This document shows positions 2,506 to 22,041 of a stretch of DNA of 64,000 nt, one piece after another. How positions within the stretch are numbered: the stretch's first letter is position 1; each line of letters starts with the position of its first letter. Source of the DNA: an uncultured Candidatus Binatia bacterium (GTDB lineage Bacteria > Desulfobacterota > Binatia > Bin18). Below the pieces are notes generated by a model. It had not been told where the DNA came from. It ran no database searches and saw nothing but the letters and a program-made list of their open reading frames with translations. The stretch lies in the NCBI GenBank assembly GCA_965200965.1, contig OZ241744.1:2848001-2912000 (forward strand), given 5' to 3'. The position numbers were made by a program, and so were the translations under genes.

Positions 2506-3087
2506 TCAGGCTTCCACCAGGGCGTCCAGCCGTCGGCGATTGTTACCGATGTCTTCCTCCAGGCTGCGGACGCTGCGCTCAAAGGGCCGCAGCATGGTCC
2601 GCCGGTCCCACAGGGCAAAGCCGAGAATGGCCGCGACCAGGGTACTGAAGGCGGCCAGCAGGGCCAGGGTGAGGTGGAACTGCCGGGCAAACTGCCCGGT
2701 CATCTCTTCCCGCAACTGCTGCATCTGTTGGCCGATGTCGGTGCGGAGTTGCTCGTTCTGCCGGTTCATATCTTCCCGGAGTTGCTCGTTCTGCCGGTTC
2801 ATATCTTCCCGGAGTTGCTGCATATCCGCACGGAGTTGCTCGTTCTGCCGGTTCATATCTTCCCGGAGTTGCTGCATATCCGCGCGGAGTTGCTCGTTCT
2901 GCCGGTTCATATCTTCCCGGAGTTGCTGCATATCCGCACGGAGTCCGCCCTGCCCCTCTTCAAGCCGTGCCAGCCGCTCGGCGATCTCCCGGTCAGGCAA
3001 GGCCGGCGTGGCCTCCACCGCCCCGGCCGGGTGAGGCAGGAGCAGCCCGGTCAGGAGGACGAGCCAGGCGACACGCAGCTTGCTCAT
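2506..3087 (-). CDS. signal peptide + coiled-coil repeat + TM protein, copy 3; C-terminally truncated by TTG>TGA
   Basis: LRADMQQLREDMNRQNEQ x3 plus an 11-aa partial unit, then a TM helix; paralog of 18770-19273; decayed tail continues to about 2432. Confidence 0.8.
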   Translation of the reverse strand: MSKLRVAWLVLLTGLLLPHPAGAVEATPALPDREIAERLARLEEGQGGLRADMQQLREDMNRQNEQLRADMQQLREDMNRQNEQLRADMQQLREDMNRQNEQLREDMNRQNEQLRTDIGQQMQQLREEMTGQFARQFHLTLALLAAFSTLVAAILGFALWDRRTMLRPFERSVRSLEEDIGNNRRRLDALVEA

Positions 3088-3164: not shown

Positions 3165-6100
3165 TTACTCAAGGTTCGTAATCACAAAGTTCTGGGAGGA
3201 TTGCTGCCAGTCCAGGGTGACGGTCTCGCCGGCCCGCGGAAAGTCGGCCACCACCGCTTGGCCGCTGGCCCCGCGGACGAACTCCTCGCCTAAGGTCGTC
3301 ACGATGAAGGTCGCCCGGCTGAACTCCACCCCATCGGCCAAGGCCCGGATGGTATGTTCGCCGTCACCGATCAGGTTCCAGTTGAACAGCAGCCCAAAGC
3401 CGTTGTTGCCGTCGTTGCCGCACGCCTCAGCCGTATCGGCCCGGCCCGTGCCAGAGGCCGCCGCCAGCCGGTGGATGGCGTTGATCTCAAGCTCGACCCT
3501 CCCGGCCTCACACACCCAGCCCGAGATCACGCTGATACCACTCTGGAAGGAGCCGCCGGCCGGGTTTTCCAGGACGCCGTTCTGCCCGGTCGGCGGCGAG
3601 ACAGCCACGGCGGCCGAGAGCGGGGCCAGCCTGAAGCTCTGGCTACCCTCTTGCCACACCAGCCGGACCTGCTCGCCCGGGGATGGAAAGTCGGGCACAC
3701 GGGTCTCGCCACTGGCCCCCCTGATGAACTCCTCGCCTAAGGTCGTCACGGTGAAGGTGGCCCGGTCAAACTCGACCCCGTCGGCCAAGGCCCGGATGGT
3801 ATGTTCGCCGTCACCGATCAGGTTCCAGTTGAACAGCAGCCCAAAGCCGTTGTTGCCGTCGTTGCCGCACGCCTCAGCCGTATCGGCCCGGCCGGTACCA
3901 GCGGCGGCTTCCAGGATATGCGTGCCGTCCACCTCTAAGGTGATCGCCCCCCTGGCGCACGTCCAGCCCGAGATCAGCCCAATGCCGCTCTGGGAGGAAT
4001 CCGGCTCGGGGTTCTCCAGGACCCCGACCAAGACGGTGACGGTGAAGGTGGCCCGGTCAAACTCGACCCCGTCGGCCAAGGCCCGGATGGTATGTTGGCC
4101 AGCACCGATCTCGTCCCAGTCAACCTGCAACGCAAAACCCACATCGGCCTGGCCCCCGCAGTTTCCGGCCGCATCGGCCCGGCTGGTGCGAGCGGCTGTT
4201 CCGATAGACATGCCGTCCACCTCCAAGGTGATCACCCCCTGGCTGCACGTCCAGCCCGAGATCCGCCCGGTGCCACCGTGCGAGGAACCCTGACCGGGGT
4301 TCTCCAGGACCCCGACCCCGTCCAAAGACTGGGGGGGAGGGGGAGTACCGCCCCCGCCACCGCCCCCGCGGCCGGTGTTATCTGGGGGGGTCTCCGGGGG
4401 AGTTTCCACCTGGGGGGGGGTCTCCGGCCGGGGAGGGTCTGGAGGGTCTGGGGGGGTCTCCGGCCGGGGTGGGACTTCGGTGAAGGACGGGAACCCGAAG
4501 ATATTGGCGCAGAGTTGACCGCTGGAGTGCTCTGAGGACAGGACGCGCCAAGTGGTTCCGGCCCGCCCGACGATCCGGGGGGCGGGGGCGTTACTCAGGT
4601 CGCCCAGCAGGGGCAAACACACCCGCACGGCTTGGCTAGGATTGAGGGGGACTACATTCCCCGCCGCATTCCGGAAAAGGATGTTGGCGAAGACGGGGAG
4701 CGTCCCGAAATCCAGCGGGGGGGTCGGACTGGCCACCACGGAGAAGGGGCGCGCGTTCGCGTGGCCCGGCGACAAGGCGGAAAAATACTCGACATCGGAG
4801 GTGAGGCCGGTGCCCGCCTCGGAGAGTGTGGCGGGCTGGTGTTTGTGAGCGGTGAAGCTGGCGGGCCAGTGATAGAGAGCCCACGCCGCCGGCGGGCGTT
4901 GGCGTTGAGCGGCCCGGTATGCCAGGCGGGTGAGGGTGTTATGGGCTTCCCCCGGGATAATGTTTCGGATGTTGAAGAGGGTGTGCTCGAGCCGCCCGCT
5001 CACATCAAACACGCTTCGGCCTGCTTGGCTGCCATTGATGCCATACTCGGAGGCATAGAGATCCAGCGTGCTGCTGCCGATGACCGTGTTCCAGGACCCG
5101 TCGACCGTGACGGTGTTACTCCCCCCGCTGCCATCAAGCCCCATCCTGATCCCAAAGCCTGCTCTGGTGATGTAATTGCGTGACAGCGTGGCGGCCACCT
5201 GACTGCGAGTCCCGGCACTGGTGGTGCTGGTGATATCAATCCCGGTGCCTGCGCCGGTGATGCGGTTGGCCGACAGCGTGGTGGCCAGGGTGCTTGTCGC
5301 CGTGTTGCGGAGAGAAGTCCGAAGGTACACGCCGGTCGCGCTGGTGGTGATCGTATTGTCGGCCACGATGAGGTCCACGCTACTCGTCGCCGTGCTGCTG
5401 AGGGTCTTGTGCAGGTACACGCCGGTCGCGTGGCTGCCGGGCGTCTGCGAGATATCATTCTCGCGGATGGTTACGGCGGCGCAGCCGGGGCCGCTGTCCA
5501 ACTCAATGGCGCGGGGCGTGGAAGTGGCTGTGGAAGAGGCGACCAGGACATTATCGGAGAGGGTGACCCGGGCAGTGAGCGGGCAGTTCGGGGAGGATGC
5601 GACGGCGATCCCCGCACCGGCGAAATTGACGATATCGAACCCCTGCACGGTGGCGGTGGGGGAGGAGATGTGCAGCACGCTACGCTCGGCAAGGGGGCGC
5701 GCTGAATCAGTGGGAAGCTGTGACCCATCAAGCGTCATATCGACAGGCCGCCCGGCTGGGTCCTGGGCGAGGAGCCGGGTGTTGCCAGCGAGCGGCAGCG
5801 GGCTGGTGGGTGTGATGGTGCCGCCGCTGAGAGTCGGGTCGAAGATGATCGCCGTTGGGGTCGAGGTGGCGTTGGCCAAGTTCAACAGATAGGGGAGGGA
5901 CCCCGGCGTAGCGGCATCATCGGTGAGGGTGGTGACGGTGGAGGTGGCCATGAACGGGGAGGAGGTGGCCGTAGACGGGGGGGGGCTGGGGGGCTGGCGC
6001 AGGCTGAAATCAGCGCAGATTTGACTGCCCGCCCGCTCCGAGGACAGGGCCCGCCACGACGCGCCGGCCCGCCCGACGATCCGGGGGGCGGGGGCGTCAC

Positions 6101-9100
6101 TCAGGTCGCCCAGCAGGGGCAAACACACCCGCACGGCTTGGCTAGGATCGAGGGGGACTACATTCCCCGCCGCATTCCGGAAAAGGATGTTGGCGAAGAC
6201 GGGGAGCGTCCCGAAATCCAGCGGGGGGGTCGGACTGGCCACCACGGAGAAGGGGCGCGCGTCCGCGTGGCCCGGCGACAAGGCGGAAAAATACTCGACA
6301 TCGGAGGTGAGGCCGGTGCCCGCCTCGGAGAGCGTGGCGGGCTGGTGTTTGTGAGCGGTGAAGCTGGCGGGCCAGTGATAGAGAGCCCACGCCGCCGGCG
6401 GGCGTTGGCGTTGAGCGGCCCGGTATGCCTGGCGGGTGAGGGCGTTATGGGCTTCCCCCGGGATAATGTTTCGGATGTTGAAAAGGGTATGCTCGAGCCG
6501 CCCGCTCACATCAAACCCGCTTCGGCCCCCTTGACTGCCATTGACGCCATACTCGGAGGCATAGAGATCCAGCGTGCTGCTGCCGATGACCGTGTTCCAG
6601 GACCCGTCGACCGTGACGGTGTTACTCCCCCCGCTGCCATCAAGCCCCATCCTGATCCCAAAGCCTGCTCTGGTGATGTAATTGCGTGACAGCGTGGCGG
6701 CCACCTGACTGCGAGTCCCGGCACTGGTGGTGCTGGTGATATCAATCCCGGTGCCTGCGCCGGTGATGCGGTTGGCCGACAGCGTGGTGGCCAGGGTGCT
6801 TGTCGCCGTGTTGCGGAGAGAAGTCCGAAGGTACACGCCGGTCGCGCTGGTGGTGATCGTATTGTCGGCCACGATGAGGTCCACGCTACTCGTCGCCGTG
6901 CTGCTGAGGGTCTTGTGCAGGTACACGCCGGTCGCGTGGCTGCCGGGCGTCTGCGAGATATCATTCTCGCGGATGGTTACGGCGGCGCAGCCGGGGCCGC
7001 TGTCCAACTCAATGGCGCGGGGCGTGGAAGTGGCTGTGGAAGAGGCGACCAGGACATTATCGGAGAGGGTGACCCGGGCAGTGAGCGGGCAGTTCGGGGA
7101 GGATGCGACGGCGATCCCCGCACCGGCGAAATTGACGATATCGAACCCCTGCACGGTGGCGGTGGGGGAGGAGATGTGCAGCACGCTACGCTCGGCAAGG
7201 GGGCGCGCTGAATCAGTGGGAAGCTGTGACCCATCAAGCGTCATATCGACAGGCCGCCCGGCTGGGTCCTGGGCGAGGAGCCGGGTGTTGCCAGCGAGCG
7301 GCAGCGGGCTGGTGGGTGTGATGGTGCCGCCGCTGAGAGTCGGGTCGAAGATGATCGCCGTTGGGGTCGAGGTGGCGTTGGCCAAGTTCAACAGATAGGG
7401 GAGGGACCCCGGCGTAGCGGCATCATCGGTGAGGGTGGTGACGGTGGAGGTGGCCATGAACGGGGAGGAGGTGGCCGTAGACGGGGGGGGGCTGGGGGGC
7501 TGGCGCAGGCTGAAATCAGCGCAGATTTGACTGCCCGCCCGCTCCGAGGACAGGGCCCGCCACGACGCGCCGGCCCGCCCGACGATCCGGGGGGCGGGGG
7601 CGTCACTCAGGTCGCCCAGCAGGGGCAAACACACCCGCACGGCTTGGCTAGGATCGAGGGGGACTACATTCCCCGCCGCATTCCGGAAAAGGATGTTGGC
7701 GAAGACGGGGAGCGTCCCGAAATCCAGCGGGGGGGTCGGACTGGCCACCACGGAGAAGGGGCGCGCGTCCGCGTGGCCCGGCGACAAGGCGGAAAAATAC
7801 TCGACATCGGAGGTGAGGCCGGTGCCCGCCTCGGAGAGCGTGGCGGGCTGGTGTTTGTGAGCGGTGAAGCTGGCGGGCCAGTGATAGAGAGCCCACGCCG
7901 CCGGCGGGCGTTGGCGTTGAGCGGCCCGGTATGCCTGGCGGGTGAGGGCGTTATGGGCTTCCCCCGGGATAATGTTTCGGATGTTGAAAAGGGTATGCTC
8001 GAGCCGCCCGCTCACATCAAACCCGCTTCGGCCCCCTTGACTGCCATTGACGCCATACTCGGAGGCATAGAGATCCAGCGTGCTGCTGCCGATGACCGTG
8101 TTCCAGGACCCGTCGACCGTGACGGTGTTACTCCCCCCGCTGCCATCAAGCCCCATCCTGATCCCAAAGCCTGCTCTGGTGATGTAATTGCGTGACAGCG
8201 TGGCGGCCACCTGACTGCGAGTCCCGGCACTGGTGGTGCTGGTGATATCAATCCCGGTGCCTGCGCCGGTGATGCGGTTGGCCGACAGCGTGGTGGCCAG
8301 GGTGCTTGTCGCCGTGTTGCGGAGAGAAGTCCGAAGGTACACGCCGGTCGCGCTGGTGGTGATCGTATTGTCGGCCACGATGAGGTCCACGCTACTCGTC
8401 GCCGTGCTGCTGAGGGTCTTGTGCAGGTACACGCCGGTCGCGTGGCTGCCGGGCGTCTGCGAGATATCATTCTCGCGGATGGTTACGGCGGCGCAGCCGG
8501 GGCCGCTGTCCAACTCAATGGCGCGGGGCGTGGAAGTGGCTGTGGAAGAGGCGACCAGGACATTATCGGAGAGGGTGACCCGGGCAGTGAGCGGGCAGTT
8601 CGGGGAGGATGCGACGGCGATCCCCGCACCGGCGAAATTGACGATATCGAACCCCTGCACGGTGGCGGTGGGGGAGGAGATGTGCAGCACGCTACGCTCG
8701 GCAAGGGGGCGCGCTGAATCAGTGGGAAGCTGTGACCCATCAAGCGTCATATCGACAGGCCGCCCGGCTGGGTCCTGGGCGAGGAGCCGGGTGTTGCCAG
8801 CGAGCGGCAGCGGGCTGGTGGGTGTGATGGTGCCGCCGCTGAGAGTCGGGTCGAAGATGATCGCCGTTGGGGTCGAGGTGGCGTTGGCCAAGTTCAACAG
8901 ATAGGGGAGGGACCCCGGCGTAGCGGCATCATCGGTGAGGGTGGTGACGGTGGAGGTGGCCATGAACGGGGAGGAGGTGGCCGTAGACGGGGGGGGGCTG
9001 GGGGGCTGGCGCAGGCTGAAATCAGCGCAGATTTGACTGCCCGCCCGCTCCGAGGACAGGGCCCGCCACGACGCGCCGGCCCGCCAGGCGATCCGCGGGG

Positions 9101-12100
9101 CGTCGGCGTCGGCCAGGTCGGCCGGCAGAGGCAGACACACCCGCACGGGATGGGTAACCCCGAGGGTGACCACTTCACCGGTAAACCGGCTCTGATCAGC
9201 GAGAATGAGTTTGACGGCGACAGGCATGGTCCCGAAGTCCGGCGGGGGGGTCGGACTGGCCACCACGGAAAAGGCGTGCTGGTTAGCGAAGATCTGGTTC
9301 GGCCCGAAGGTGATCTGATATTCCTGGCTAAGGGTTCCGCTGCGCCTGAGGAACGTGGCGGCCTGGTATCGGTGGACGGTGAAGCTGGCGGGGAACCGAT
9401 AGCGAGTCCAAGGGGGTGGAAAGCGCGGGGGGCGGACAGCGGCCCGGTATGCGGAACGGGTGAAGGGGCCGGGGGACTCCCCTACTGCAATGTTTCTGCT
9501 GTTGAAGAGGGTGTGCTCGAGCCGCCCGCTCACATCAAACCCGCTTCGGCCTGCCTGGCTGCCATTGACGCCATACTCGGAGGCATAGAGATCCAGCGTG
9601 CTGCTGCCGATGACCACATTGCCGGTCCCGTTGACCGTGACGGTGTTGCTCCCCTCGCTGCCGTCAAGATGAATCCTCATCCCAAAGTCGGCTCTGGTGA
9701 TGTAATTGCGTGACAGCGTGGCGGCCACCTGACTGCGAGTCCCGGCACTGGTGGTGCTGGTGATATCAATCCCGGTGCCTGCGCCGGTGATGCGGTTGGC
9801 CGACAGCGTGGTGGCCAGGGTGCTCGTCGCCGTGTCGCTGAGAGAGGTCCGAAGGTACACGCCGGTCGCGCTGGTGGTGATCGTATTGTCGGCCACGATG
9901 AGGTCCACGCTACTCGTCGCCGTGTTGCTGAGGGTCTTGTGCAGGTACACGCCGGTCGCGCGTCTGTCCGGCGTCTGTGAGATATCATTCTCGCGGATGG
10001 TTACGGCGGTGCAGCCGGGGCCGCTGTCCAACTCAATCGCGCGGGCCGTGGAAGTCGCTGTGGAAGAGGCAGAGGCGACCAGGACATTATCGGCGATCGT
10101 GACCCGGGCATTGACCGGGCAGTTCGGGGAGGATGCGACGGCGATCCCCACCTCGTCGAAGACGATATTGAATCCCGAAACGGTGGCGGTGGGGGAGGAG
10201 ATGGTCAGCACCCTACGCTCGGCAAGGGGGCGCTCTGAATCAACGGGATACGGAATGAGGGTGATATCGACGGCCATCCCGTCTGCATCCTGGGCGAGGA
10301 GCCGGGTGTTGCCAGCGAGCGGCAGTGGGCTGTTGGGCTGGATGGTGCCGCCGTCGAGGGCCGGGTCAAAGATGATCGCCGTTGGTGTGGATGTAGCGTT
10401 GGCCTGGTTCAACAGATAGGGGAGGGACCCCAGCGTATTGGCATTATCGGTGAGGGTGGTGACGGTGGAGGTGGCCATGGGGGGGGGTATGCTGAAGAGC
10501 GGGAACCCGCGGAAATCGGCGCAGATTTCACTGCCTGACCGAGCCGAGGGCAGGGTGCGCCAGACGGTTCCGTCCAGCCAGGCGAGCCGTGGGTTGGAAG
10601 CCGACAGGTCGGCCGGCACGGGCAAACACACCCGCACGGGGTGGGTCAGCCCGAGGGTGGCCATCCGCCAGTCTGCATCCCGGGGAATGAGTCTGGCGAC
10701 GACGGGGACGGTCCCGAAGTCCGTTGAGGTGGCCTGCCCGGACACCACGGACACGGCCCGCTCAACCGCCGCGCTCGGGGTAAACTGGACCGGGTCGGCC
10801 AGGACATAGGTTTCCCCAATGATGGTGACGGTTACGATCTCGGTCTCGCCGTACCGGGTCCGGCGTCCGCCTGTGATACCCGCGGGGGGGAGCCGGTCTA
10901 CCTGGTATCGATGGACGGTGAAGCTGTTGGCCCTCTCCCTCACGCCTGAAAGGTTTGCGGCGTTGAAGATGGTGTCCTCGATCTGCCCGTTTATCTCGTA
11001 ACCCCCCTCTGAGGCGAAGATATCCGTCCTGCTGCTGCCGATGACCGTGTTGCTGGAACCGCTGACCGTGGCTCCGCCGCTTCCCCCGCTGCCGCTAAAC
11101 GCAATCCTGATCCCATTGTTTGCTCCGGTGATGCGATTGAGCGACAGATTGGTGTTTGTCTCAGCGCTGGACCCATTATTGGTGGTGTCCAGCGAAATCC
11201 CATTGCTTGCTCCGGTGATGTGATTGGCCGTCAGCCGAGCGTCCACCCTGTTGCTACTGCTGTCGGTGATATTATCGATGATCCTGATCCCGTTTGTTGC
11301 TCTGGTGATGCGATTGACCTCCAGATCGACATCCACCCTGTTGCTACTCCCGCCGCTGAGGATGTTGGTCAACAAAATCGCCTGGCCCGGTGTGGTGATC
11401 GTATTGTCGGACACGAAGGCGGCCACGCTGCTACTCGCCGTGCTCTGGAGGATATGACCAATGTAAATGCCGGTCGAGTTGGTGGTGATCGTATTGTCGG
11501 ACACGAAGAGGTCCACGCTACTCGTCGCCATGTTGCGGAGGATCTTTTGCAGGTAAATGCCGTTCGCCAGGCCTCCCGGCGTCTGCGAGATATCATTCGC
11601 GCGGATGGTCACGGCGGTGCAGCCGGCACCATCGCCCACCTGAATCGCGTTGGCCGAGGAAGTGGCGACCAGGACATTATCGGAGATCGTGACCCGGGCA
11701 TTGGCCGGGCAGTTCGGGGAGGCTGAGACGAAGATCCCCGCGCCAGCGAAATTGACGATGTCGAACCCCTGCACGGTGGCGGTGGGGGAGGAGATGGTCA
11801 GCACACTACGCTCGGCAATGGGATGCGCTGAATCAGTGGGAAGCTGTGACCCATCGAGGGTCATATCAATGGACATCCCGGCTGCATCCTGGGCAAGGAG
11901 CCGGATGTTGGCAGCGAGCGGCAGCGGGCTGGCGGGCGTGAGGGTGCCGCCACTGAGGGCCGGGTTGAAGATGATCGCCGTTGGGGTCGAGGTGGCGTTG
12001 GCCCGGTTCAGCAGATAGCGGAGGGACCCCGGCGTACTGGCCTCATCGGTGAGGCTGGTGACGGTGGAGGTGGCTGTTTGTGCCCTGAGCGCGGGGGCGA

Positions 12101-12223
12101 GGGCCAGCAGCAGGCCGCACAGGAGCAGCAGGCCGACAAGTCGAGCGGAACGCATAGTCATCGTCACTATCTGTGATCTTGGGGGGGGGGGGGGGGGTAG
12201 GATTCCTGGCTGTTTGCAATCAT
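3165..12223 (-). CDS. giant secreted right-handed beta-helix repeat protein (5 modules of about 500 aa plus 3 C-terminal LENP..SG Ig-like domains); SD-led ATG out of frame across poly-C
   Basis: 3026-aa ORF; signal peptide RSARLVGLLLLCGLLLALAPALRA; CSLREA-like TVTSLTD..GSLRY; ITxNxI PbH1-like repeats; Pro/Gly linker. Confidence 0.85.
4558..9085. repeat. three near-identical tandem 1506-bp (502-aa) intragenic repeats
   Basis: identical shadow ORFs at 5221/6727/8233 (period 1506); only a few SNPs in the 3'-most copy. Confidence 0.95.
12181..12197. repeat. G17 homopolymer (C17 on coding strand), candidate phase-variation tract
   Basis: lies between SD-ATG (12223) and the signal-peptide coding sequence. 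Confidence 0.85.
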
Positions 12224-12253
12224 GGCTGCCTCCCTGAACCGGCATTGCAGGGT

Positions 12254-12282
12254 ATTTCAGTCTCCTGGTGTTTGTGTGTCAA
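12254..12282 (-). promoter_or_regulatory. sigma70 promoter of the 3026-aa gene with a degenerate -10
   Basis: TTGACA-17-TGAAAT; the paralogous promoter has TAAAAT. Confidence 0.6.
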
Positions 12283-12394
12283 AGCGGCCTTCCCTGATGA
12301 GAGGCGGCCCGCACTTGAAGAAAGCGCAAGTGAAACTGGCGGAGGACGCTCGCCACTTCGGGCACCACTTCGGGGTGTGCTGGCCCAAGGCCCG

Positions 12395-12943
12395 TCAGGC
12401 TTCCACCAGGGCGTCCAGCCGCCGGCGATTGTTGCCGATATCTTCCTCCAGGCTGCGGACGCTGCGCTCAAAGGGCCGCAGCATGGTCCGCCGGTCCCAC
12501 AGGGCAAAGCCGAGAATGGCCGCGACCAGGGTACTGAAGGCGGCCAGCAGGGCCAGGGTGAGGTGGAACTGCCGGGCAAACTGCCCGGTCATCTCTTCCC
12601 GCAACTGCTGCATCTGTTGGCCGATGTCGGTGCGGAGTTGCTCGTTCTGCCGGTTCATATCTTCCCGGAGTTGCTGCATATCCGCGCGGAGTTGCTCGTT
12701 CTGCCGGTTCATATCTTCCCGGAGTTGCTGCATATCCGCGCGGAGTTGCTCGTTCTGCCGGTTCATATCTTCCCGGAGTTGCTGCATATCCGCACGGAGT
12801 CCGCCCTGCCCCTCTTCAAGCCGCGCCAGCCGCTCGGCGATCTCCCGGTCAGGCAAGGCCGGCGTGGCCTCCACCGCCCCGGCCGGGCCGGGCAGGAACA
12901 GCCCGGTCAGGAGGACGAGCCAGGCGACACGCAGCTTGCTCAT
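12395..12943 (-). CDS. coiled-coil repeat TM protein, copy 2; truncated by the same premature stop as copy 3
   Basis: three 18-aa units; ends LDALVEA*. Confidence 0.8.
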   Translation of the reverse strand: MSKLRVAWLVLLTGLFLPGPAGAVEATPALPDREIAERLARLEEGQGGLRADMQQLREDMNRQNEQLRADMQQLREDMNRQNEQLRADMQQLREDMNRQNEQLRTDIGQQMQQLREEMTGQFARQFHLTLALLAAFSTLVAAILGFALWDRRTMLRPFERSVRSLEEDIGNNRRRLDALVEA

Positions 12944-13020
12944 GGGGCTATTCAAGGCCGGGCCAGCGGGAATGTCAAGCTGCGGGCAGAGCCTTGAGCG
13001 GGCGGGGCCGGCCAGCCCCG

Positions 13021-16000
13021 TTACTCAAGGTTCGTAATCACAAAGTTCTGGGAGGATTGCTGCCAGTCCAGGGTGACGGTCTCGCCGGCCCGCGGAAAGT
13101 CGGCCACCACCGCTTGGCCGCTGGCCCCGCGGACGAACTCCTCGCCTAAGGTCGTCACGATGAAGGTCGCCCGGCTGAACTCCACCCCATCGGCCAAGGC
13201 CCGGATGGTATGTTCGCCGTCACCGATCAGGTTCCAGTTGAACAGCAGCCCAAAGCCGTTGTTGCCGTCGTTGCCGCACGCCTCAGCCGTATCGGCCCGG
13301 CCCGTGCCAGAGGCCGCCGCCAGCCGGTGGATGGCGTTGATCTCAAGCTCGACCCTCCCGGCCTCACACACCCAGCCCGAGATCACGCTGATACCACTCT
13401 GGAAGGAGCCGCCGGCCGGGTTTTCCAGGACGCCGTTCTGCCCGGTCGGCGGCGAGACAGCCACGGCGGCCGAGAGCGGGGCCAGCCTGAAGCTCTGGCT
13501 ACCCTCTTGCCACACCAGCCGGACCTGCTCGCCCGGGGATGGAAAGTCGGCCACAAAGGTCTCGCCGCTGGCCCCGCGGATGAACTCCTCGCCTAAGGTC
13601 GTCACGGTGAAGATCGCCCGGTCAAACTCGACCCCGTCGGCCAAGGCCCGGATGGTATGTTCGCCGTCACCGATCAGGTTCCAGTTGAACAGCAGCCCAA
13701 AGCCGTTGTTGCCGTCGTTGCCGCACGCCTCAGCCGTATCGGCCCGGCCGGTACCAGCGGCGGCTTCCAGGATATGCGTGCCGTCCACCTCTAAGGTGAT
13801 CGCCCCCCTGGCGCACGTCCAGCCCGAGATCAGATTAATGCCGCTCTGAGAGGAACCCGGCTCGGGGTTCTCCAGGAACCCGACCAAAGGCTGGGGGGGA
13901 GGAAGGGCAGCACCGCCCCCGCCACCGCCCCCACCGCCGGGGTTACCTGGGGGAGTTTCCACTTGGGGGGGAGTCTCTGGTCGGGGGGGGACTTCGGTGA
14001 AGGCCGGGAACCCGAAGATATTGGCGCAGAGTTGACCGCCGGAGTGCTCTGAGGACAGGACGCGCCAAGTGGTTCCGGCCCGCCCGACGATCCGGGGGGC
14101 GGGGGCGTCGGCCAAGTCGCCCAGCAGGGGCAAACACACCCGCACGGCTTGGCTAGGATCGAGGGGGACTACATTCCCCGCCGCATTCCGGAAAAGGATG
14201 TTGGCGAAGACGGGGAGCGTCCCGAAATCCAGCGGGGGGGTCGGACTGGCCACCACGGAGAAGGGGCGCGCGTCCGCGTGGCCCGGCGACAAGGCGGAAA
14301 AATACTCGACATCGGAGGTGAGGCCGGTGCCCGCCTCGGAGAGCGTGGCGGGCTGGTGTTTGTGAGCGGTGAAGCTGGCGGGCCAGTGATAGAGAGCCCA
14401 CGCCACCGGCGGGCGTTGGCGTTGAGCGGCCCGGTATGCCTGGCGGGTGAGGGCGTTATGGGCTTCCCCCGGGATAATGTTTCGGATGTTGAAGAGGGTG
14501 TGCTCGAGCCGCCCGCTCACATCAAACCCGCTTCGGCCCGCTTGGCTGCCATTGACGCCATACTCGGAGGCATAGAGATCCAGCGTGCTGCTGCCGATGA
14601 CCGTGTTCCAGGACCCGCTGACCGTGACGGTGTTACTCCCCCCGCTGCCGTCAAGCCTCATCTGGATCCCAAAGCCTGCTCTGGTGATGTAATTGCGTGA
14701 CAGCGTGGCGGCCACCTGACTGCGAGTCCCGGCACTGGTGGTGCTGGTGATATCAATCCCGGTGCCTGCGCCGGTGATGCGGTTGGCCGACAGCGTGGTG
14801 GCCAGGGTGCTCCTCGCCGTGTTGCTGAGAGAGGTCCGAAGGTACACCCCGCTCGCGCTGGTGGTGATCGTATTGTCGGCCACGATGAGGTCCACGTTGC
14901 TCGTCGCCGTGTTGCTGAGGGTCTTGTGCAGGTACACGCCGGTCGCGCGGCGGCTGCCGGGCGTCTGTGAGATAGCATTCTCGCGGATGGTTACGGCGGC
15001 GCAGCCGGGGCCGCTGTCCAACTCAATGGCGCGGGGCGTGGAAGTGGCTGTGGAAGAGGCGACCAGGACATTATCGGAGAGGGTGACCCGGGCAGTGAGC
15101 GGGCAGGTCGGGGAGGCGGCGACGGCGATCCCCACCCCGGCGAAATTGACGATATCGAACCCCCGCACGGTGGCGGTGGGGGAGGAGATGCGCAGCACGA
15201 CGGGGAGTTGTGACCCATTGAGGGTTATATCGACAGACCGCCCGGCTGTATCCTGGGCGAAGAGCCAGATATCGCTAGCGAGCGGCAGCAGGCTGGTGGG
15301 CGTGATGGTGCCGCCGCTGAGGGTCGGGTCGAAGATGATCGTCGTTGGGGTAGAGGTGGCGTTGGCCTGGTTCAACAGATAGGGGAGGGACCCCGGCGTA
15401 TTGGCATCATCCGTGAGGGTGGTGACGATGGAGAGGTGGCGGATGCGGAAATCGGCGCAGATTTGATTGCCGGACCGAGCCGAGGGCAGGGTGCGCCAGA
15501 CGGGGCCGTCCCGCCAGGCGATCCGCGGGGCGTCGGCGTCGGCCAGGTCGGCCGGCAGAGGCAGACACACCCGCACATGATGGGTAATCCCGAGGATGAT
15601 CCTATCTGTATCAGCGGGAATGAGCCTGACGGCGACAGGCATGGTCCCGAAGTCCGGCGGGGCGGTCGGACTGGCCACCACGGAAAAGGCGCGCTGGTTA
15701 TTGGAGATCTGGTTCGGCGTGAAGGTCTGCTGATATTCCTGGGAAAGAGTGGTTGTGCGGGCCCCGAGGAACGTGGCGGCCTGGTAGCGGTGGGCGGTGA
15801 AGCTGGCGGGCCAGTGATAGAGAGCCCAGGCAGCCGGCGGGCGTTGGCGTTGAGCGGCCCGGTATGCCTGGCGGGTGAAGGGGGTATGCGCCTCCCCCGG
15901 GATAATGTTTCGGGTGTTGAAGAGGGTGTTCTCGAGCCGCCCGCTCACATCAAACCCGCTTCGGCCCGCTTGGCTGCCATTGACGCCATACTCGGAGACA

Positions 16001-18610
16001 TAGAGATCCAGCGTGCTGCTGCCGATGACCGTGTTCCAGGACCCGTCGACCGTGACGGTGTTGCTCCCCCCGCTGCCGTCAAGCCTCATCTGGATCCCGA
16101 AGTTGGCTCCGGTGATGTAATTGCGCGACAGCGTGGCGGCCACCTGACTGCTATTCCCGGAACTGGTGGTGCTGGTGATATCAATCCCGGTGCCTGCGCC
16201 GGTGATGCGATTGGCCGACAGCGTGGTGGCCAGGGTGCTCGTCGCCGTGTCGCTGAGAGAGGTCCGAAGGTACACCCCGGTCGCGCTGGTGGTGATCGTA
16301 TTGTCGGCCACGATGAGGTCCACGCTACTCGTCGCCGTGCTGCTGAGGGTCTTGTGCAGGTACACGCCGGTCGCGTGGCTGCCGGGCGTCTGCGAGATAT
16401 CATTCTCGCGGATGGTCACGCCGGCGCAGCCGGGGCCGCTGTCCAACTCGATCGCGCGGGCTGTGGAAGAGGCGACCAGGACATTATCGGAGAGGGTGAC
16501 CCGGGCAGTGACCGGGCAGTTCGGGGAGGCGGCGACGGCGATCCCCGCGCCGGCGAAATTGACGATATCGAACCCCCGCACGGTGGCGGTGGGGGAGGAG
16601 ATGCGCAGCACACTACCGTCAGCGGGGAGTTGTGACCCATCGAGGGTCATATCGACAGACCGCCCGGCTACGTCCTGGGCGCGGAGCTGGGTGTTGCCAG
16701 CGAGCGGCAGCGGGCTGGTGGGGGTGATGGTGCCGCCGCTGAGGGTCGGGTCAAAGAGGATCTCCGTTGGGGTAGAGGTGGCGTTGGCCTGATTCAACAG
16801 ATAGGGGAGGGACCCCAGCGTATTGGCCTCATCGGTGAGGGTGGTGACGATGTAGGTGATAAGGAGCCTCTGAAAGCTCAACTCGGCGCAGATTTCATCG
16901 CCTGACCGAGCCGAGGGCAGGGTGCGCCAGACGGTTCCGTCCCGCCAGGCGATCCGTGGGGCGGACGCCGACAGGTCGGCCGGCACGGGCAAACACACCC
17001 GCACGGGGTGGAGCAGCCCGCGGGTGGCCACCCGCCCGTCCGCAGTCTGGGGCAGCAGGCCAGCGACAACAGGCATGGTCCCGAAGTCCGTTGAGGTGGC
17101 CTGACCGGACACCACGGACACGGCCCGCTCAACCGCTTCGCGCGGGGTAAACTGGGCCGGGTCGGCCAGATAGGTTTCCTCAATGGTGGTGACGGTCACG
17201 ATCTCGGTCGTGCCGTCCTGGTTCTGGTGCCCGCCGGTGATCCCCCCGGGGGGGAGCCGGTCTACTTGGTAGCGGTGGACGGTGAAGCTGTTGGCCCTCG
17301 TCCCCACTGCCAGGCGTATGGTGTTGAAGATGGTGCGCTCGAGACGCCCGTTGATCTGGTATCTGTTCTCGGAGGCGGAGATATCTGTGTCGCTGCTGCC
17401 GAGGACCACATTGCCGGTCCCGTTGACCGTGGCGCTGTTGCTCGTCCCGTTGCCGCTGAGATCAATCTCAAGGCCCTTCCGCGCACCGGTGATGTAATTG
17501 CCCGACAGCGTGGCGTCCGTGCTCAAACTCGTCCCGCTGCCGAAGCTGGTGCTGGCAATCCTGATCCCCTTCTGCGTGCCGGTGAGGTGATTGCCCGACA
17601 GCGTGACCGTCGCGCTGTCAACAGCCCCGCGGCCAACACTGCCGAGGACCGCAATGCCGTCCTGCGGGCCGGTGATGCGATTGGCCGACAGTTGGGCAAC
17701 CAGGCGATTGCTCCCCCCACTGCCGATGGTGGAGACAAACGCAATCCCCTCCCGTGTGCCGGTGATGCGATTGGCCGACAGCCGGGCGGTCACCCTGGAG
17801 CTGTTATCCCCGGTGGTGGTGGAGCGACCAATGGAAATGCCGACAGCGGTGGTGATCGTATTGTCGGCCACGAGAGCGTCCACGCTGCTACTCGCCATAG
17901 TGTGGGAGGTGCCGGCATCGGTGCTGCGAATGGAAATGCCGGTCGCGCGGCTGCCCGGTGTCTGTGAGATATTATTCGCGCGGATGGTCACCGCGGTGCA
18001 CTGGTTGGTGACGCTGGTCACCTCAATGGCGTGGGGCGTGGAAGTGGCTGTGGAAGAGGCGACCAGGACATTATCGGAGAGGGTGACCCGGGCAGTGAGC
18101 GGGCAGTTCGGGGAGGATGCGACGGCGATCCCCGCGCCGGCGAAATTGACGATATCGAATCCCGAAACGGTGGCGGTGGGGGAGGAGATGTGCAGCACGC
18201 TACGCTCGGCAAGAGGACGCCCTGAATCAGTGGGGAGCTGTGACCCATCGAGCGTCATATCGACGGCCATCCCGGCTGCATCCTGGGCGAGGAGCCGGAT
18301 GTTGGCAGCGAGCGGCAGCGGGCTGGCGGGCGTGAGGGTGCCGCCACTGAGGGCCGAGTTGAAGATGATCGCCGTTGGGGTAGAGGTGGCGTTGGCCTGG
18401 TTCAACAGATAGCGGAGGGACCCCGGCGTACTGGCCTCATCGGTGAGGCTGGTGACGGTGGAGGTGGCTGTTTGTGCCCTGACCGCGGGGGCGAGGGCCA
18501 GCAGCAGGCCGCACAGGAGCAGCAGGCCGACAAGTTGAGCGTAACGCATAGTCATCACCATCTGTGATCTTGGGGGGGGGGGGGTAGGATTCCTGACTGT
18601 TTGCAATCAT
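13021..18610 (-). CDS. giant secreted beta-helix repeat protein (3 modules plus 2 C-terminal Ig-like domains); SD-led ATG out of frame across poly-C
   Basis: 1861-aa ORF paralogous to the 3026-aa gene; last ~530 bp appear identical to the 3165 end. Confidence 0.85.
18572..18584. repeat. G13 homopolymer (C13 on coding strand)
   Basis: same position relative to the start as G17 at 12181. Confidence 0.85.
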
Positions 18611-18640
18611 GGCTGTCTCCCTGAACCGGCATTGCAGGGT

Positions 18641-18669
18641 ATTTTAGCCTCCTGGTGTTTGTGTGTCAA
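18641..18669 (-). promoter_or_regulatory. near-consensus sigma70 promoter of the 1861-aa gene
   Basis: TTGACA-17 nt-TAAAAT, followed by GGGAGA SD and ATG at 18610. Confidence 0.75.
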
Positions 18670-18713
18670 AGTGGGCCTGCATCCGCTCCCACCGGACCCA
18701 CGGGCCCGGAGCA

Positions 18714-18760
18714 GCGTCAAACGCCGTGTTGGGGATGCCGCAATAGCTCGAACCGTTCTC
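18714..18760 (-). pseudogene. 47-bp diverged remnant of the 5' region of the LLM gene
   Basis: 42/47 match to 2222-2268 (ENGSSYCGIPNTAFDA vs ENGPSYFGIPNTAFDA). Confidence 0.85.
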
Positions 18761-18769
18761 ACGAAGGGC

Positions 18770-19273
18770 TTAGCGCAAGTGAAACTGGCGGAGGACGCCC
18801 GCCACTTCGGGGTCGTGCTGGCCCAAGGCCCGCAAGGCTTCCACCAGGGCGTCCAGCCGCCGGCGATTGTTGCCGATGTCTTCCTCCAGGCTGCGGACGC
18901 TGCGCTCAACGGGCCGCAGCATGGTCCGCCGGTCCCACAGGGCAAAGCCGAGAATGGCCGCGACCAGGGTACTGAAGGCGGCCAGCAGGGCCAGGGTGAG
19001 GTGGAACTGCCGGGCAAACTGCCCGGTCATCTCTTCCCGCAACTGCTGCATCTGTTGGCCGATGTCGGTGCGGAGTTGCTCGTTCTGCCGGTTCAGGTCT
19101 TCCCGGAGTTGCTTTAGATCGGTCCGGAGCCCGGTCTGCCCCTCTTCAAGCCGGGCCAGCCGCTCGACGATCTCCCGGTCGGTCAAGGCCGGCGCGGCTT
19201 CCACCGCCCCGGCCGGGCCGGGCAGGAACAGCCCGGTCAGGAGGACGAGCCAGGCGACACGCAGCTTGCTCAT
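18770..19273 (-). CDS. coiled-coil TM protein, copy 1 (intact, single repeat unit)
   Basis: signal peptide, coiled coil, TM helix, full tail ALRALGQHDPEVAGVLRQFHLR. Confidence 0.85.
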   Translation of the reverse strand: MSKLRVAWLVLLTGLFLPGPAGAVEAAPALTDREIVERLARLEEGQTGLRTDLKQLREDLNRQNEQLRTDIGQQMQQLREEMTGQFARQFHLTLALLAAFSTLVAAILGFALWDRRTMLRPVERSVRSLEEDIGNNRRRLDALVEALRALGQHDPEVAGVLRQFHLR

Positions 19274-19350
19274 GGGGCTATTCAAGGCCGGGCCAGCGGG
19301 AATGTCAAGCTGCGGGCAGAGCCTTGAGCGGGCGGGGCCGGCCAGCCCCG

Positions 19351-22041
19351 TTACTCAAGGTTCGTAATCACAAAGTTCTGGAAGGATTGCTGCCAGACCA
19401 GGGTGACGGTCTCGCCGGTGCTCGGAAAGTCGGCCACTACCGCCCGCCCGCTGGCCTCGCGGACGAACTCCTCATCCAAGGTCGTCACGGTGAAGGTCGC
19501 CCGGTCAAACTCGACCCCGTCGGCCAAGGCCCGGATGGTATGTTGGCCGTCACCGAGCAGGTTCCAGTTGAAGAGCAGCCCGAAGCCCACATCGCCCCGG
19601 CCCTCGCAGACTCCGGCGGCGGCCACATCGCCCCGGGCCGTGCCAGAGGCGGCTTCCAGGAGATGCGTGCCGTCCACTTCCAACTCAATCGCTTCCCCGG
19701 TACACACCCAGCCCGAGATCACGCTGATACCGCTCTGGAAGGAGCCGCCGGCCGGGTTTTCCAGGACGCCGAGCGGGCCGGCAGTGGTGGAGGAGGCCGC
19801 CGGCGGGGGGGCTGTGGTCGAGAGCGGGGCCAGCATGAAATTCTGGACAGCCTGTTCCCACACCAGCCGCGTCTGCTCGCCCGGAGACGGAAAGTCGGCC
19901 ACCACCACCTCGCCGCTGGCCCCGCGGACGAACTCCTCACCCAAGGTCGTCACGGTGAAGATCGCCCGGTCAAACTCCACCCCATCGGCCAAGGCCCGCA
20001 TGGTATGTTGGCCGTCACCGAGCAGGTTCCAGTTGAACAGCAGCCCAAAGCCCACATCACCCCGGCCCTCGCAGACTCCGGCGGCGGCCACATCGCCCCG
20101 GGCCGTGCCAGAGGCGGCTTCCAAGCGATGCGTGGTGCCGTCCACCTCCACCTCCACCTCAATCAATTCCCCGGTACACACCCAGCCCGAGATCACGCCG
20201 ATGCCACTGAAGAAGGCCGGCTGGGGGTACTCCAGGACCCCGACCACGCCTCCTGCTACGGTGCCGGTGGGGGGTGGAGCCACTGTGCCGCCCCCGCCAT
20301 TGCCCCCGAGGCCCGGGTTCTCTGGGGGAGTCTCCGGCCGGGGCTGGGAGGGCGTGAAGGGCGTGAAGGACGGGAACCCGGAAAGATCGGCGCAGATCTG
20401 GACGCCTGACCGAGCCGAGGGCAGGGTGCGCCAGACGGTTCCGTCCCGCCCGGCGATCCGTGGGTCGGGGGCGTCGCTCAGGTCGGCCGGCAGGGGCAAA
20501 CACACCCGAAAGGATTGGGTGAGGGTGACTACAGTCCCTGCCGCATTCCGGAAAAGGATGTTGGCGAAGACGGGGAGGGTCCCGAAGTCCGGCGGGGGGG
20601 TCGGACTGGACACCACGGAGAAGGTGCGCGCGTTCGCGTGGACCTGCGGCAAGGCGGAAACATATTCTTCATCGGAGGTGATTCCGGTGCCTGCCTGTGA
20701 GAGCGTGGCGGTCTGGTGTCTGTGGGCGGTGAAGCTGGCGGGCCACTGATAGGAAGGCCAAGTGGCCGACGGTTGGAGTTGAGCGGCCTGGTATGCGCTG
20801 AGGATGAGGCGCTGGGCCACCTCCACCGCATTCACATCCGGTCTGATGTTCTGGGTGTTGAAGATGGTGTTCCCGAGACGCCCGCTCACATCAAACCCGC
20901 TTCGGCCCGCTTGGCTGCCATTGACGCCATACTCTGAGGCGAAGAGATCCATCGTGCTGCTGCCGATGACCGTGTTCCAGGACCCGTTGACCCTGGCGAT
21001 GTTGCTCCCCCCGCTGCCGTCAAGATTAATCCTGATCCCAAAGCTTGCTCCGGTGATGTAATTGCGCGACAGCGTGGCGGTCACCCGACTGTCAGCGCTG
21101 GCGGCCTGGGTGGTGCTGTCTATATTAATCCCGGTGTGTGCTCCGGTGATGCGGTTGCCCGACAGCGTGGCAGTCGTTCTAGCTGTACTCGTCGCCATGC
21201 GGTGAGCAAGGTAAATGCCGTTCGCTCCGGTGGTGATCGTATTGTCGGACACGATGAGGTCCAGGGTGCTCGTCGCCATGCTGCTGAGGGTCTTATGCAG
21301 GTAAATGCCGTTCGCCTGGCTTCCCGGTGTCTGCGAGATAGTATTCTCGCTGATGGTCACGCCGGCGCAGCCGGGGCCACTGTCCAACTCAATCGCGTGG
21401 GCCGTGGAAGTGGCGACCAGGACATTATCGGAGATTGTGACCCGGGCATTGGCCGGGCAGTTCGGGGAGGCTGAGACGTAGATCCCCGCGCCGGCGAAAT
21501 TGACGATATCGAATCCCTGCACGGTGGCGGTGGTGGAAGAGATGCTCAGCACATTACGCCCGGCAAGGGAGATCTCTGTATTAGTGGGGAACTGTGACCC
21601 AGCGAGCGTTATATCGACAGACCTCCCGGCTGCATCCTGGGCGAGGAGCCGTATGTTGCCAGAGAGCAGCAGCGGGATGTTGGGCGTGATGGTGCCGCCG
21701 CTGAGGGTTGAGTCGAAGATGATTGTTGTCGGGGTAGATGTGGCGTTGGCCTGGTTCAACAGATAGCGGAGGGTCCCCGGCGTAGTGAGACCATCCGTGA
21801 GGCTGATGACGGTGGAGGTGGCCGTTTGCGCCCTGACCGCGGGGGCGAGGGCCAACAGCAGGCTGCACAGGAGCAGCAGGCCGACAAGTCGGGCGTAACG
21901 CCTATCCATCATCATCTGTGATCTTGGGGGGGGGGCGATCTCCCGGTCGGTCAAGGCCGGCGCGGCCTCCACCGCTCCGCTCGGGCGGGGCAGGAGCAGC
22001 CCGGTCAGGATGATACGCCAAGCGATACGCAGCTTGCTCAT
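19351..22041 (-). CDS. secreted beta-helix protein (1 module plus 2 Ig-like domains), N-terminally fused through C10 to the first 36 aa of a coiled-coil gene copy
   Basis: MSKLRIAW...LTDREIA|PPPRSQ; G10 at 21926-21935 keeps the frame. Confidence 0.85.
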   Translation of the reverse strand: MSKLRIAWRIILTGLLLPRPSGAVEAAPALTDREIAPPPRSQMMMDRRYARLVGLLLLCSLLLALAPAVRAQTATSTVISLTDGLTTPGTLRYLLNQANATSTPTTIIFDSTLSGGTITPNIPLLLSGNIRLLAQDAAGRSVDITLAGSQFPTNTEISLAGRNVLSISSTTATVQGFDIVNFAGAGIYVSASPNCPANARVTISDNVLVATSTAHAIELDSGPGCAGVTISENTISQTPGSQANGIYLHKTLSSMATSTLDLIVSDNTITTGANGIYLAHRMATSTARTTATLSGNRITGAHTGINIDSTTQAASADSRVTATLSRNYITGASFGIRINLDGSGGSNIARVNGSWNTVIGSSTMDLFASEYGVNGSQAGRSGFDVSGRLGNTIFNTQNIRPDVNAVEVAQRLILSAYQAAQLQPSATWPSYQWPASFTAHRHQTATLSQAGTGITSDEEYVSALPQVHANARTFSVVSSPTPPPDFGTLPVFANILFRNAAGTVVTLTQSFRVCLPLPADLSDAPDPRIAGRDGTVWRTLPSARSGVQICADLSGFPSFTPFTPSQPRPETPPENPGLGGNGGGGTVAPPPTGTVAGGVVGVLEYPQPAFFSGIGVISGWVCTGELIEVEVEVDGTTHRLEAASGTARGDVAAAGVCEGRGDVGFGLLFNWNLLGDGQHTMRALADGVEFDRAIFTVTTLGEEFVRGASGEVVVADFPSPGEQTRLVWEQAVQNFMLAPLSTTAPPPAASSTTAGPLGVLENPAGGSFQSGISVISGWVCTGEAIELEVDGTHLLEAASGTARGDVAAAGVCEGRGDVGFGLLFNWNLLGDGQHTIRALADGVEFDRATFTVTTLDEEFVREASGRAVVADFPSTGETVTLVWQQSFQNFVITNLE

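What the first reader, a model, noticed from the sequence alone, without database searches (positions are those of the whole stretch)
12181..21935. Poly-C tracts (17, 13, 10) form a likely ON/OFF translational switch for the three giant genes
In two copies the layout is promoter, SD (GGGAGG/GGGAGA), ATG ATT GCA AAC AGY CAG GAA TCC TA-C(n)-A AGA TCA, then the signal peptide. The frame is kept only if n is a multiple of 3. Both n=17 (12181-12197) and n=13 (18572-18584) are out of frame, whereas the fused copy with C10 (21926-21935) is in frame. Slipped-strand phase variation of surface proteins is well established; as sequenced, one of three genes would be ON. Downstream ATG/GTG codons (MTMR) might allow re-initiation.
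Basis: partly seen in the sequence, partly recalled or inferred. Interest (0 to 1): 0.7.

Follow-up and report, generated by a model that had tools for sequence, protein, structure and literature searches.

The report
Poly-C switches on symbiont surface proteins
Runs of 17, 13 and 10 C's sit between the start codon and the export signal of three large secreted-protein genes of a sponge-associated bacterium, and at two of them closely related strains carry other lengths that flip the reading frame, so they likely act as random on/off (possibly three-level) switches of a kind well known from pathogens.

Summary
Observation confirmed. On the minus strand C17, C13 and C10 lie between an upstream ATG and the signal peptide of three paralogous genes (about 3,000, 1,860 and 900 aa; predicted beta-helix repeats plus Ig-like C-terminal modules) of a sponge-associated Ca. 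Binatia. One run's contigs reproduce all three lengths; other assemblies or runs show C15 (in frame) at gene 2 and C8 (out of frame) or probably C9 at gene 3. The genome has 15 C/G runs of 12 or more (0.3 expected); 6 of 9 large proteins with this C-terminal module carry a run before the signal peptide. Best reading: slipped-strand phase variation. Switching within a population, start codons and expression are untested. The mechanism is known (Neisseria autA/autB, Gardnerella nanH3, Haemophilus licA); I found no paper on it in Binatia. This scan noted the same device before in other sponge symbionts (unchecked notes).

The parts
12181..12197 (-). C17 tract of gene 1 (n=3k+2: out of frame with the SD-led ATG; stop 11 nt behind the tract)
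   Evidence: same length in a contig of run X1
12198..12234 (-). SD GGGAGG (12234-12229), ATG 12223 and leader codons MIANSQESY of gene 1
   Evidence: duplex with the genome's own 16S tail -10.9 kcal/mol
12243..12282 (-). promoter-like TTGACA-17-TGAAAT (A at -11 lost) and an ATG at 12245 that is in frame when n=3k+2 (possible leaderless start)
   Evidence: not scored as a promoter
12153..12169 (-). TAG TGA stops of the 3k+2 frame overlapping or abutting in-frame GTG 12167, ATG 12161, ATG 12155
3165..12180 (-). gene 1 body: Sec-type signal peptide (12155-12081, by eye), five beta-helix-type repeat units, Pro/Gly linker, three Ig-like C-terminal modules; about 3,000 aa
18572..18584 (-). C13 tract of gene 2 (n=3k+1: 57-aa product, stop 132 nt behind the tract); C15 and in frame in another assembly
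   Evidence: X1 contig identical, X3 contig +2; P0020
18585..18669 (-). sigma-70-like promoter TTGACA-17-TAAAAT (18669-18641), ATG 18632, SD GGGAGA (18621-18616), ATG 18610, TTG 18606
18547..18561 (-). downstream ATG GTG ATG ACT ATG cluster with overlapping TGA TGA; ATG 18549 has SD-like GGTGAT (-8.4 kcal/mol)
13021..18571 (-). gene 2 body: signal peptide, three beta-helix-type units, two Ig-like C-terminal modules; about 1,850 aa
21926..21935 (-). C10 tract of gene 3, in frame here; C8 in run X3; probably C9 behind a shortened leader in P0013
21936..22041 (-). leader of gene 3: 5' end of the small coiled-coil gene fused to the tract, hydrophobic core broken by Arg substitutions
19351..21925 (-). 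gene 3 body: ATG ATG ATG (21915-21907), signal peptide, one beta-helix-type unit, two Ig-like modules; 854 aa from the first Met
12395..12943 (-). small secreted coiled-coil gene, part of the repeated cassette upstream of gene 1 (further copies 18770-19273 and 2506-3087)

Best explanation
The three C runs are length-variable tracts in the coding leader of large secreted-protein genes, and they likely work as slipped-strand phase-variation switches. Translation would begin at the upstream ATG; replication slippage would add or remove a C, and only one length in three joins that ATG to the signal peptide and the full protein. The two other lengths are predicted to differ: in genes 1 and 2 n=3k+1 gives a 57-58 aa dead-end peptide that runs over the downstream starts (off), while n=3k+2 stops on top of in-frame GTG/ATG codons and may restart (low). 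Gene 3 is predicted to be buffered, since both wrong frames stop beside ATG ATG ATG. The cells of one population would then show different mixes of related surface proteins. Shown: tracts, frames, length differences between assemblies, enrichment on this protein class. Inferred: start codon use, reversibility, restart, surface location, the selective agent (phage or sponge host).
For: (1) Lengths vary while flanks barely do: run X3 (another study than X1) has +2 at a gene-2-type tract and -2 at gene 3, while six of its eight listed contigs over this stretch carry 0-2 other letters in 191-509 bases (the other two, with 4 and 17, lie over repeated parts and may be other copies). P0020 from a second near-complete assembly reads MIANSQESYPPPPPRSQ, i.e. 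C15 in frame, 97% identical to gene 2. Gene 3 cluster: 2 of 10 members are called from the upstream ATG, 8 of 10 from MMM. (2) A second tract gene of this genome (C1:3341943, G18, out of frame, no downstream start before its signal peptide) is in frame in 1 of 4 full-length cluster members. (3) 4 of 15 runs of 12 or more precede a signal-peptide-like segment of a long ORF, against 5 of 1,492 runs of 6-7 (Fisher p 8e-7; genes 1 and 2 are paralogues, so the p value overstates). 6 of 9 ORFs of 700 codons or more with the Ig-like module have a run of 10 or more before the hydrophobic segment, C in some and G in others, in four unrelated leaders; none of the 25 smaller ORFs does. (4) Internal control: in two arrays of membrane-glycosyltransferase-like paralogues 20 of 24 copies have an interrupted G9 run, all in frame; the 4 copies with a pure run have 12, 13, 14 and 15 G and 3 of 4 are out of frame. 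(5) Upstream start: SD duplex -10.9 and -8.0 kcal/mol (4% and 6% of 936 internal Met codons reach -9 and -8); most downstream starts -0.5 to -4.7; five tract-less or short-run homologues start at one upstream ATG 14-22 codons before the signal core. (6) The position is kept in sister genome G007: C30 after a strong SD-ATG in a homologue, G28 against G18 at another gene.
Against: No within-population switching was measured: only contigs were available, no raw reads and no RNA holder. X1 may be the source of the window, and X3 may be the same material as the second assembly, so there may be only two independent states for gene 2. Length differences between strains also fit slow polymorphism. MutS and MutL are intact, two copies each, so slippage may be rarer than in repair-poor pathogens. 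Downstream and alternative starts exist in every frame, and the annotators call gene 1 from ATG 12155 and gene 2 from TTG 18606. Many long runs in relatives lie outside signal-peptide genes (output partly cut), the crude 'ATG then C12' pattern is no commoner than its reversed control in this genome (14 against 16), and 3 of 15 long runs of G007 face a mixed purine stretch in G000, so these genomes also grow G runs for no visible purpose. Gene 1's -10 box is degenerate.
Confidence: 0.72

Rival explanations
1. The tract lies in a short upstream leader, the real start is the downstream GTG/ATG cluster (MTMR, MVMTMR, MMM), and tract length only tunes output through translational coupling; the genes are never fully off.
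For: All four tract-bearing homologues seen (genes 1-3, G007 L022) keep 2-4 in-frame starts right behind the tract with overlapping stops in the 3k+2 frame. ATG 18549 has an SD-like GGTGAT at -8.4 kcal/mol. 8 of 10 gene-3 members are called from MMM. The gene-3 leader is decaying and is shortened in P0013. MR-x-A-R-L is a normal-length n-region.
Against: Runs of Met/Val codons create overlapping TGA by themselves, and the four copies share one origin. Other tract genes (C1:207048, 3341943, G007 L024 G28, G035 L180/L183) have no start between tract and signal core. In n=3k+1 genes 1 and 2 read 132-135 nt past the tract. P0013 is back in frame despite its shorter leader (one case, 1 in 3 by chance).
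Confidence: 0.14
2. The runs are unselected mutational expansions in tolerant places (leaders, purine-rich stretches); frameshifted copies are simply decaying paralogues.
For: Three G007 runs replace mixed purine stretches of G000; many runs in relatives are intergenic or of unclear context; gene 1 has a weakened -10 box.
Against: The bodies behind out-of-frame tracts are open for 1,849 and 3,004 codons; the runs concentrate on one protein class with different leaders and both C and G; the position is kept in a sister species; in-frame states occur in other assemblies.
Confidence: 0.09
3. The true lengths are in frame and the frameshifts are homopolymer errors of the assembly.
For: Long homopolymers are error-prone, also on Illumina above about 14 bases (PMC8808543, passage read). 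X1 may be the same data as the assembly. C30 and G28 in G007 could be miscounted.
Against: X1 contigs give 17, 13 and 10 without gaps at single-copy depth; 20 of 20 interrupted G9 runs are read alike and in frame; differences between data sets are +2 and -2, in opposite directions, and include a run as short as 8-10. An error would not explain why the runs exist (15 against 0.3 expected).
Confidence: 0.05

Closest known systems
Neisseria meningitidis autA/autB (AAGC repeats just downstream of the start codon) and nalP, ausI/mspA (poly-C in the coding region); PMC5472700, passages read
   Same: Repeat near the 5' end of a large secreted or surface protein gene; frame decides full-length product.
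   Different: Those are type V autotransporters of a human pathogen with switching shown; these proteins show no beta-barrel family hit and end in Ig-like modules; switching here is not shown.
Gardnerella nanH3 poly-C (8-14 C); bioRxiv 10.1101/2020.09.16.300947, passages read
   Same: Poly-C of similar length at the signal-peptide end of a secreted protein gene; annotators miss the upstream start when out of frame.
   Different: There the run follows the signal peptide, so no restart can rebuild export; here it precedes the signal core and in-frame starts follow it.
Haemophilus influenzae licA (CAAT repeats, three initiation codons in two frames); PMC2212159, passages read
   Same: Several start codons make more than one of three repeat lengths productive.
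   Different: licA uses upstream starts in different frames and a tetranucleotide repeat in an LPS-modifying enzyme; here the extra starts are mostly downstream and would need restart after an overlapping stop.
Campylobacter jejuni poly-G contingency genes (PMC8355987, PMC8437040; search listing and start of abstract only)
   Same: A genome-wide set of C/G runs in genes for surface structures, including glycosyltransferase-like genes.
   Different: This genome keeps mutS and mutL; lack of MutL-type repair in Campylobacter is recalled, not checked.
Neisseria opa (CTCTT in the leader peptide) and pilC (poly-G in the signal peptide); recalled, and named in earlier scan notes; not read here
   Same: Repeat inside the signal-peptide coding region of each member of a paralogous surface-protein family.
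   Different: Different repeat unit or protein family; pathogen.

Membership tests
Simple-sequence-repeat contingency locus (translational phase variation) | Long pure repeat inside the reading frame, far above chance | tested here: met
   C17, C13, C10; 15 runs of 12 or more against 0.3 expected
Simple-sequence-repeat contingency locus (translational phase variation) | Repeat length decides full-length versus truncated product from the upstream start | tested here: met
   (computed for n mod 3); start use itself is inferred
Simple-sequence-repeat contingency locus (translational phase variation) | Length differs among close strains, with both in-frame and out-of-frame states | tested here: met
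   genes 2 and 3; gene 1 seen in one state only
Simple-sequence-repeat contingency locus (translational phase variation) | High-frequency, reversible switching within a clonal population | tested here: inconclusive
   contigs of X3 and X8 end and begin inside the tract and depth falls from 66.6 to 47.3 in X3, which fits mixed lengths but also read errors or paralogues; no raw reads
Simple-sequence-repeat contingency locus (translational phase variation) | Protein level follows the repeat length | not testable with these tools
   uncultured organism; no RNA holder listed
Simple-sequence-repeat contingency locus (translational phase variation) | Concentrated on surface or envelope genes | tested here: met
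   signal peptides judged by hydrophobicity and by eye, no SignalP
Type Va autotransporter | C-terminal beta-barrel translocator | tested here: not met
   no Pfam family for the three proteins, no NCBIfam family over cut-off for genes 2 and 3; C-terminus resembles Big_7-type Ig modules (lead only)
Right-handed beta-helix proteins (pectin-lyase-like) | Parallel beta-helix fold | tested here: met
   AlphaFold model mean pLDDT 70.6, high over about the first 300 of 445 residues; Foldseek list dominated by beta-helix proteins, best E 8.6e-6, low TM-scores; homologue P0006 hits PF13229 at 9.8e-12
Right-handed beta-helix proteins (pectin-lyase-like) | Catalytic groove residues of a lyase or hydrolase | not tested
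   identities to solved enzymes 8-15%; adhesin versus enzyme left open

The most novel reading that the evidence does not exclude
The tracts form a three-level translational switch: in frame gives full output, 3k+2 gives reduced output by stop-start coupling onto a back-up signal-peptide start, 3k+1 gives none, and gene 3 has been rebuilt by fusion into a buffered version that never goes fully off. Together with independent C or G runs on most large proteins that carry the same C-terminal module, this would be a repertoire-wide, graded surface-variation system in an uncultured sponge symbiont, i.e. pathogen-style antigenic variation in a host without adaptive immunity.
Probability: 0.22. Interest if true: 0.68.

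Novelty: new member of a known kind. Interest (0 to 1): 0.47.

Why it matters
Repeat-driven phase variation is described mainly in pathogens and commensals of vertebrates. Finding it on the largest surface-protein candidates of an uncultured sponge symbiont points to which proteins are under fluctuating selection (phage receptors or host recognition) and gives a test that needs no culture: count tract lengths in long reads across sponge individuals and tissues. It also matters for annotation: such genes get wrong starts or lose their signal peptide in databases, and fragmented short-read genomes mostly lack the runs.

Tried and rejected
Read-level tract counts: only contigs were listed and no RNA holder was listed; one laying of contigs was obtained, in which six indel rows were not shown, so tract lengths in X7 and X8 are unknown, as is gene 1 outside X1. 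JGI metagenome scans with two patterns: 0 matches each. Pattern 'C12 then CTGCTGCT within 30 nt': 0 of 41 genomes including this one, the gap was too short. Pattern 'ATG then C12': matches in 17 of 61 genomes, but the reversed control matches as well, so it shows only where long runs occur. Single-sequence fold of gene 3: pLDDT 40, not used. Pfam: 0 families for the three proteins. Searches for further gene 1 or gene 2 N-termini: nothing new; the 57-aa off-state peptide is not in the protein collection. Earlier notes on this genome: none fit. Literature: 'Binatia + homopolymer' 0 papers; searches listed nothing on repeat-driven phase variation in sponge symbionts (listings only; the library lacks most subscription papers, and supplements were not searched). 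Rejected: homopolymer error as the whole story; autotransporter; programmed ribosomal frameshifting (not tested, no need for it once in-frame alleles were found).
Full report
Observation. The window holds G17 (12181-12197), G13 (18572-18584) and G10 (21926-21935), its only runs of ten or more. On the minus strand genes 1 and 2 read SD - ATG ATT GCA AAC AGY CAG GAA TCC TA C(n) A AGA TCA CAG, then a cluster of GTG/ATG codons and a signal-peptide-like segment. The frame holds only for n = 3k; 17 and 13 are out. Gene 3 has the same sequence behind the run, but in front of it the first 35 codons of the small coiled-coil gene that precedes each cassette; C10 is in frame. Gene 2 has a near-consensus promoter; gene 1 has G instead of A at -11.

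Organism and proteins. The nearest relatives of a neighbouring gene (94-97% identical) are mostly labelled uncultured Ca. Binatia; runs holding half or more of the sampled words include four sponge metagenomes. The genome is one 3.62 Mb contig. The three proteins have no Pfam hit. Their repeat unit folds as a right-handed beta-helix (homologue P0006 hits PF13229); the C-terminal modules resemble Big_7-type Ig domains (a lead) and gene 3 finds matches, mostly through them, in 36 of 61 genomes searched. Surface display is inferred.

Are the lengths real and variable? Contigs of run X1 reproduce 13 and 10 with no gap and 17 in the gene-1 copy, at single-copy depth; X1 may be the source data. Run X3, from another study, has two more G at a gene-2-type tract and two fewer at gene 3, with almost identical flanks. 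A second near-complete assembly encodes gene 2 from the SD-led ATG with five prolines, i.e. C15 in frame, while its gene 3 is called from the downstream Met-Met-Met; it may be the same material as X3, so I count it as one state. Of ten gene-3 cluster members two are called from the upstream ATG, one of them with a shortened leader and probably C9; eight are called from MMM, which can mean out of frame, a contig end or the caller's choice. Contigs of X3 and X8 break inside the tract, which fits mixed lengths but is not proof. Gene 1 was seen in one state only.

Genome context. There are 15 C/G runs of 12 or more against about 0.3 expected; 4 of 15 precede a signal-peptide-like segment of a long ORF, against 5 of 1,492 runs of 6-7 (paralogues inflate the p value; C1:207048 was missed by the rule but fits by eye). 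Of 34 ORFs with the C-terminal module, 6 of the 9 longest (700 codons or more) have a run of ten or more just before the hydrophobic segment, in four unrelated leaders and with C or G on the coding strand; none of the other 25 does, though one has a C9 upstream and one a C10 inside the gene. One of these genes (C1:3341943), with no start between run and signal core, is in frame in 1 of 4 full-length cluster members. In two arrays of membrane-glycosyltransferase-like paralogues (label by eye, not from a family search) the 20 interrupted copies are all in frame and 3 of 4 pure runs are not: short runs are read reliably and pure long ones drift. Sister genome G007 also has 15 long runs; 5 of them face a run of nine or more at the matching place in G000, 3 face a mixed purine stretch. 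mutS and mutL are intact.

Which start? Pairing with the genome's 16S tail is -10.9 and -8.0 kcal/mol for the upstream ATGs, -12.2 for the G007 homologue with C30, and weak for most downstream codons. Five homologues without a long run at this place start from one upstream ATG with an n-region of the same extended length. But the two wrong frames are unequal. For n = 3k+2 the stop falls 11-14 nt behind the run, overlapping in-frame GTG/ATG codons, the usual geometry of translational coupling (established knowledge, recalled); for n = 3k+1 ribosomes run 132-135 nt on. In gene 3 both wrong frames stop within 21 nt, beside ATG ATG ATG. Gene 2's last ATG has its own SD-like word (-8.4), a TTG next to the main ATG is in frame for C13, and an ATG eight bases behind the -10 box is in frame for C17; the small genes of the cassette look leaderless. 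As sequenced I predict gene 1 low, gene 2 off or nearly, gene 3 on; in the X3-like state gene 2 on and gene 3 low.

Mechanism. Most likely (0.72) slipped-strand phase variation of a paralogous surface-protein set, possibly graded. Rivals: leader tuning with downstream starts (0.14), unselected expansion and decay (0.09), assembly error (0.05). Against my reading: no within-population counts, possibly only two independent states at gene 2, intact mismatch repair, many long runs in relatives without a signal-peptide gene (partly cut from view) and no excess of the crude ATG-run pattern over its control.

Comparison. It works like Neisseria autA/autB, nalP and ausI (PMC5472700, passages), Gardnerella nanH3 (10.1101/2020.09.16.300947, passages) and, for several productive frames, Haemophilus licA (PMC2212159, passages). 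Four of six features of a repeat contingency locus were met; reversibility is inconclusive and protein output untestable here. The proteins are not autotransporters. Searches showed no paper on this in Binatia or sponge symbionts (listings only; supplements not searched). Earlier notes of this scan describe the same device in eight other genomes, described there mostly as sponge-associated bacteria and archaea; they are unchecked and were not used as support.

Verdict. Real feature, known kind of switch, new lineage and protein family: interest 0.47. The bolder reading, a three-level switch by stop-start coupling across a symbiont's surface repertoire, has probability about 0.22 and would deserve 0.68.

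Noticed in passing
G000:C1:273000-306000 and 1133000-1165000: Two tandem arrays of membrane-glycosyltransferase-like paralogues (24 copies matched); four have lost the T that interrupts a G run and three of these are frameshifted.
   Followed up: partly
L021:7340-7530 (G007:C4): A homologue is preceded by three tandem copies of a leader unit, each ATG AGT CTC CAG AG plus C11, C17 or C12, then a fourth copy with C5 that opens the gene: a possible chain of upstream switches.
   Followed up: no
L067:1490-1525 (G007:C1:869716): G16 lies between TTGACA and TATAAT in front of a gene with the same C-terminal module: a candidate promoter-spacing switch.
   Followed up: no
G000:C1:2767067-2767081 and L198:1591: G15 right after the ATG of a TetR-like gene (label by eye), G23 at the same place in G007; the G000 frame ends after 59 codons.
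   Followed up: partly
window 2506-3087, 12395-12943, 18770-19273: Small secreted coiled-coil gene repeated in each cassette, with a varying number of internal repeats and apparently leaderless starts.
   Followed up: partly
window 4507-10769: Gene 1 holds three near-identical 1.5 kb units, and genes 1-3 share mosaic segments at 75-96% identity; contigs of other runs join parts of different copies, which may be recombination or mis-laid paralogues.
   Followed up: no
G000:C1:1234860-1238959 and 3300721-3306041: Two intact mutS-mutL pairs.
   Followed up: no
L047:1501 (G014) and L179:558 (G033): C17 and C20 just after the SD-led ATG of a short peptide ending in a KKPWSKPT motif, possibly a modified-peptide precursor (recalled resemblance) under the same kind of switch.
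   Followed up: no
L180:2564, L183:514, L181:586 (G035): C15, C13 and C13 between an SD-led ATG and a signal-peptide-like segment of long ORFs in another genus of the family.
   Followed up: partly
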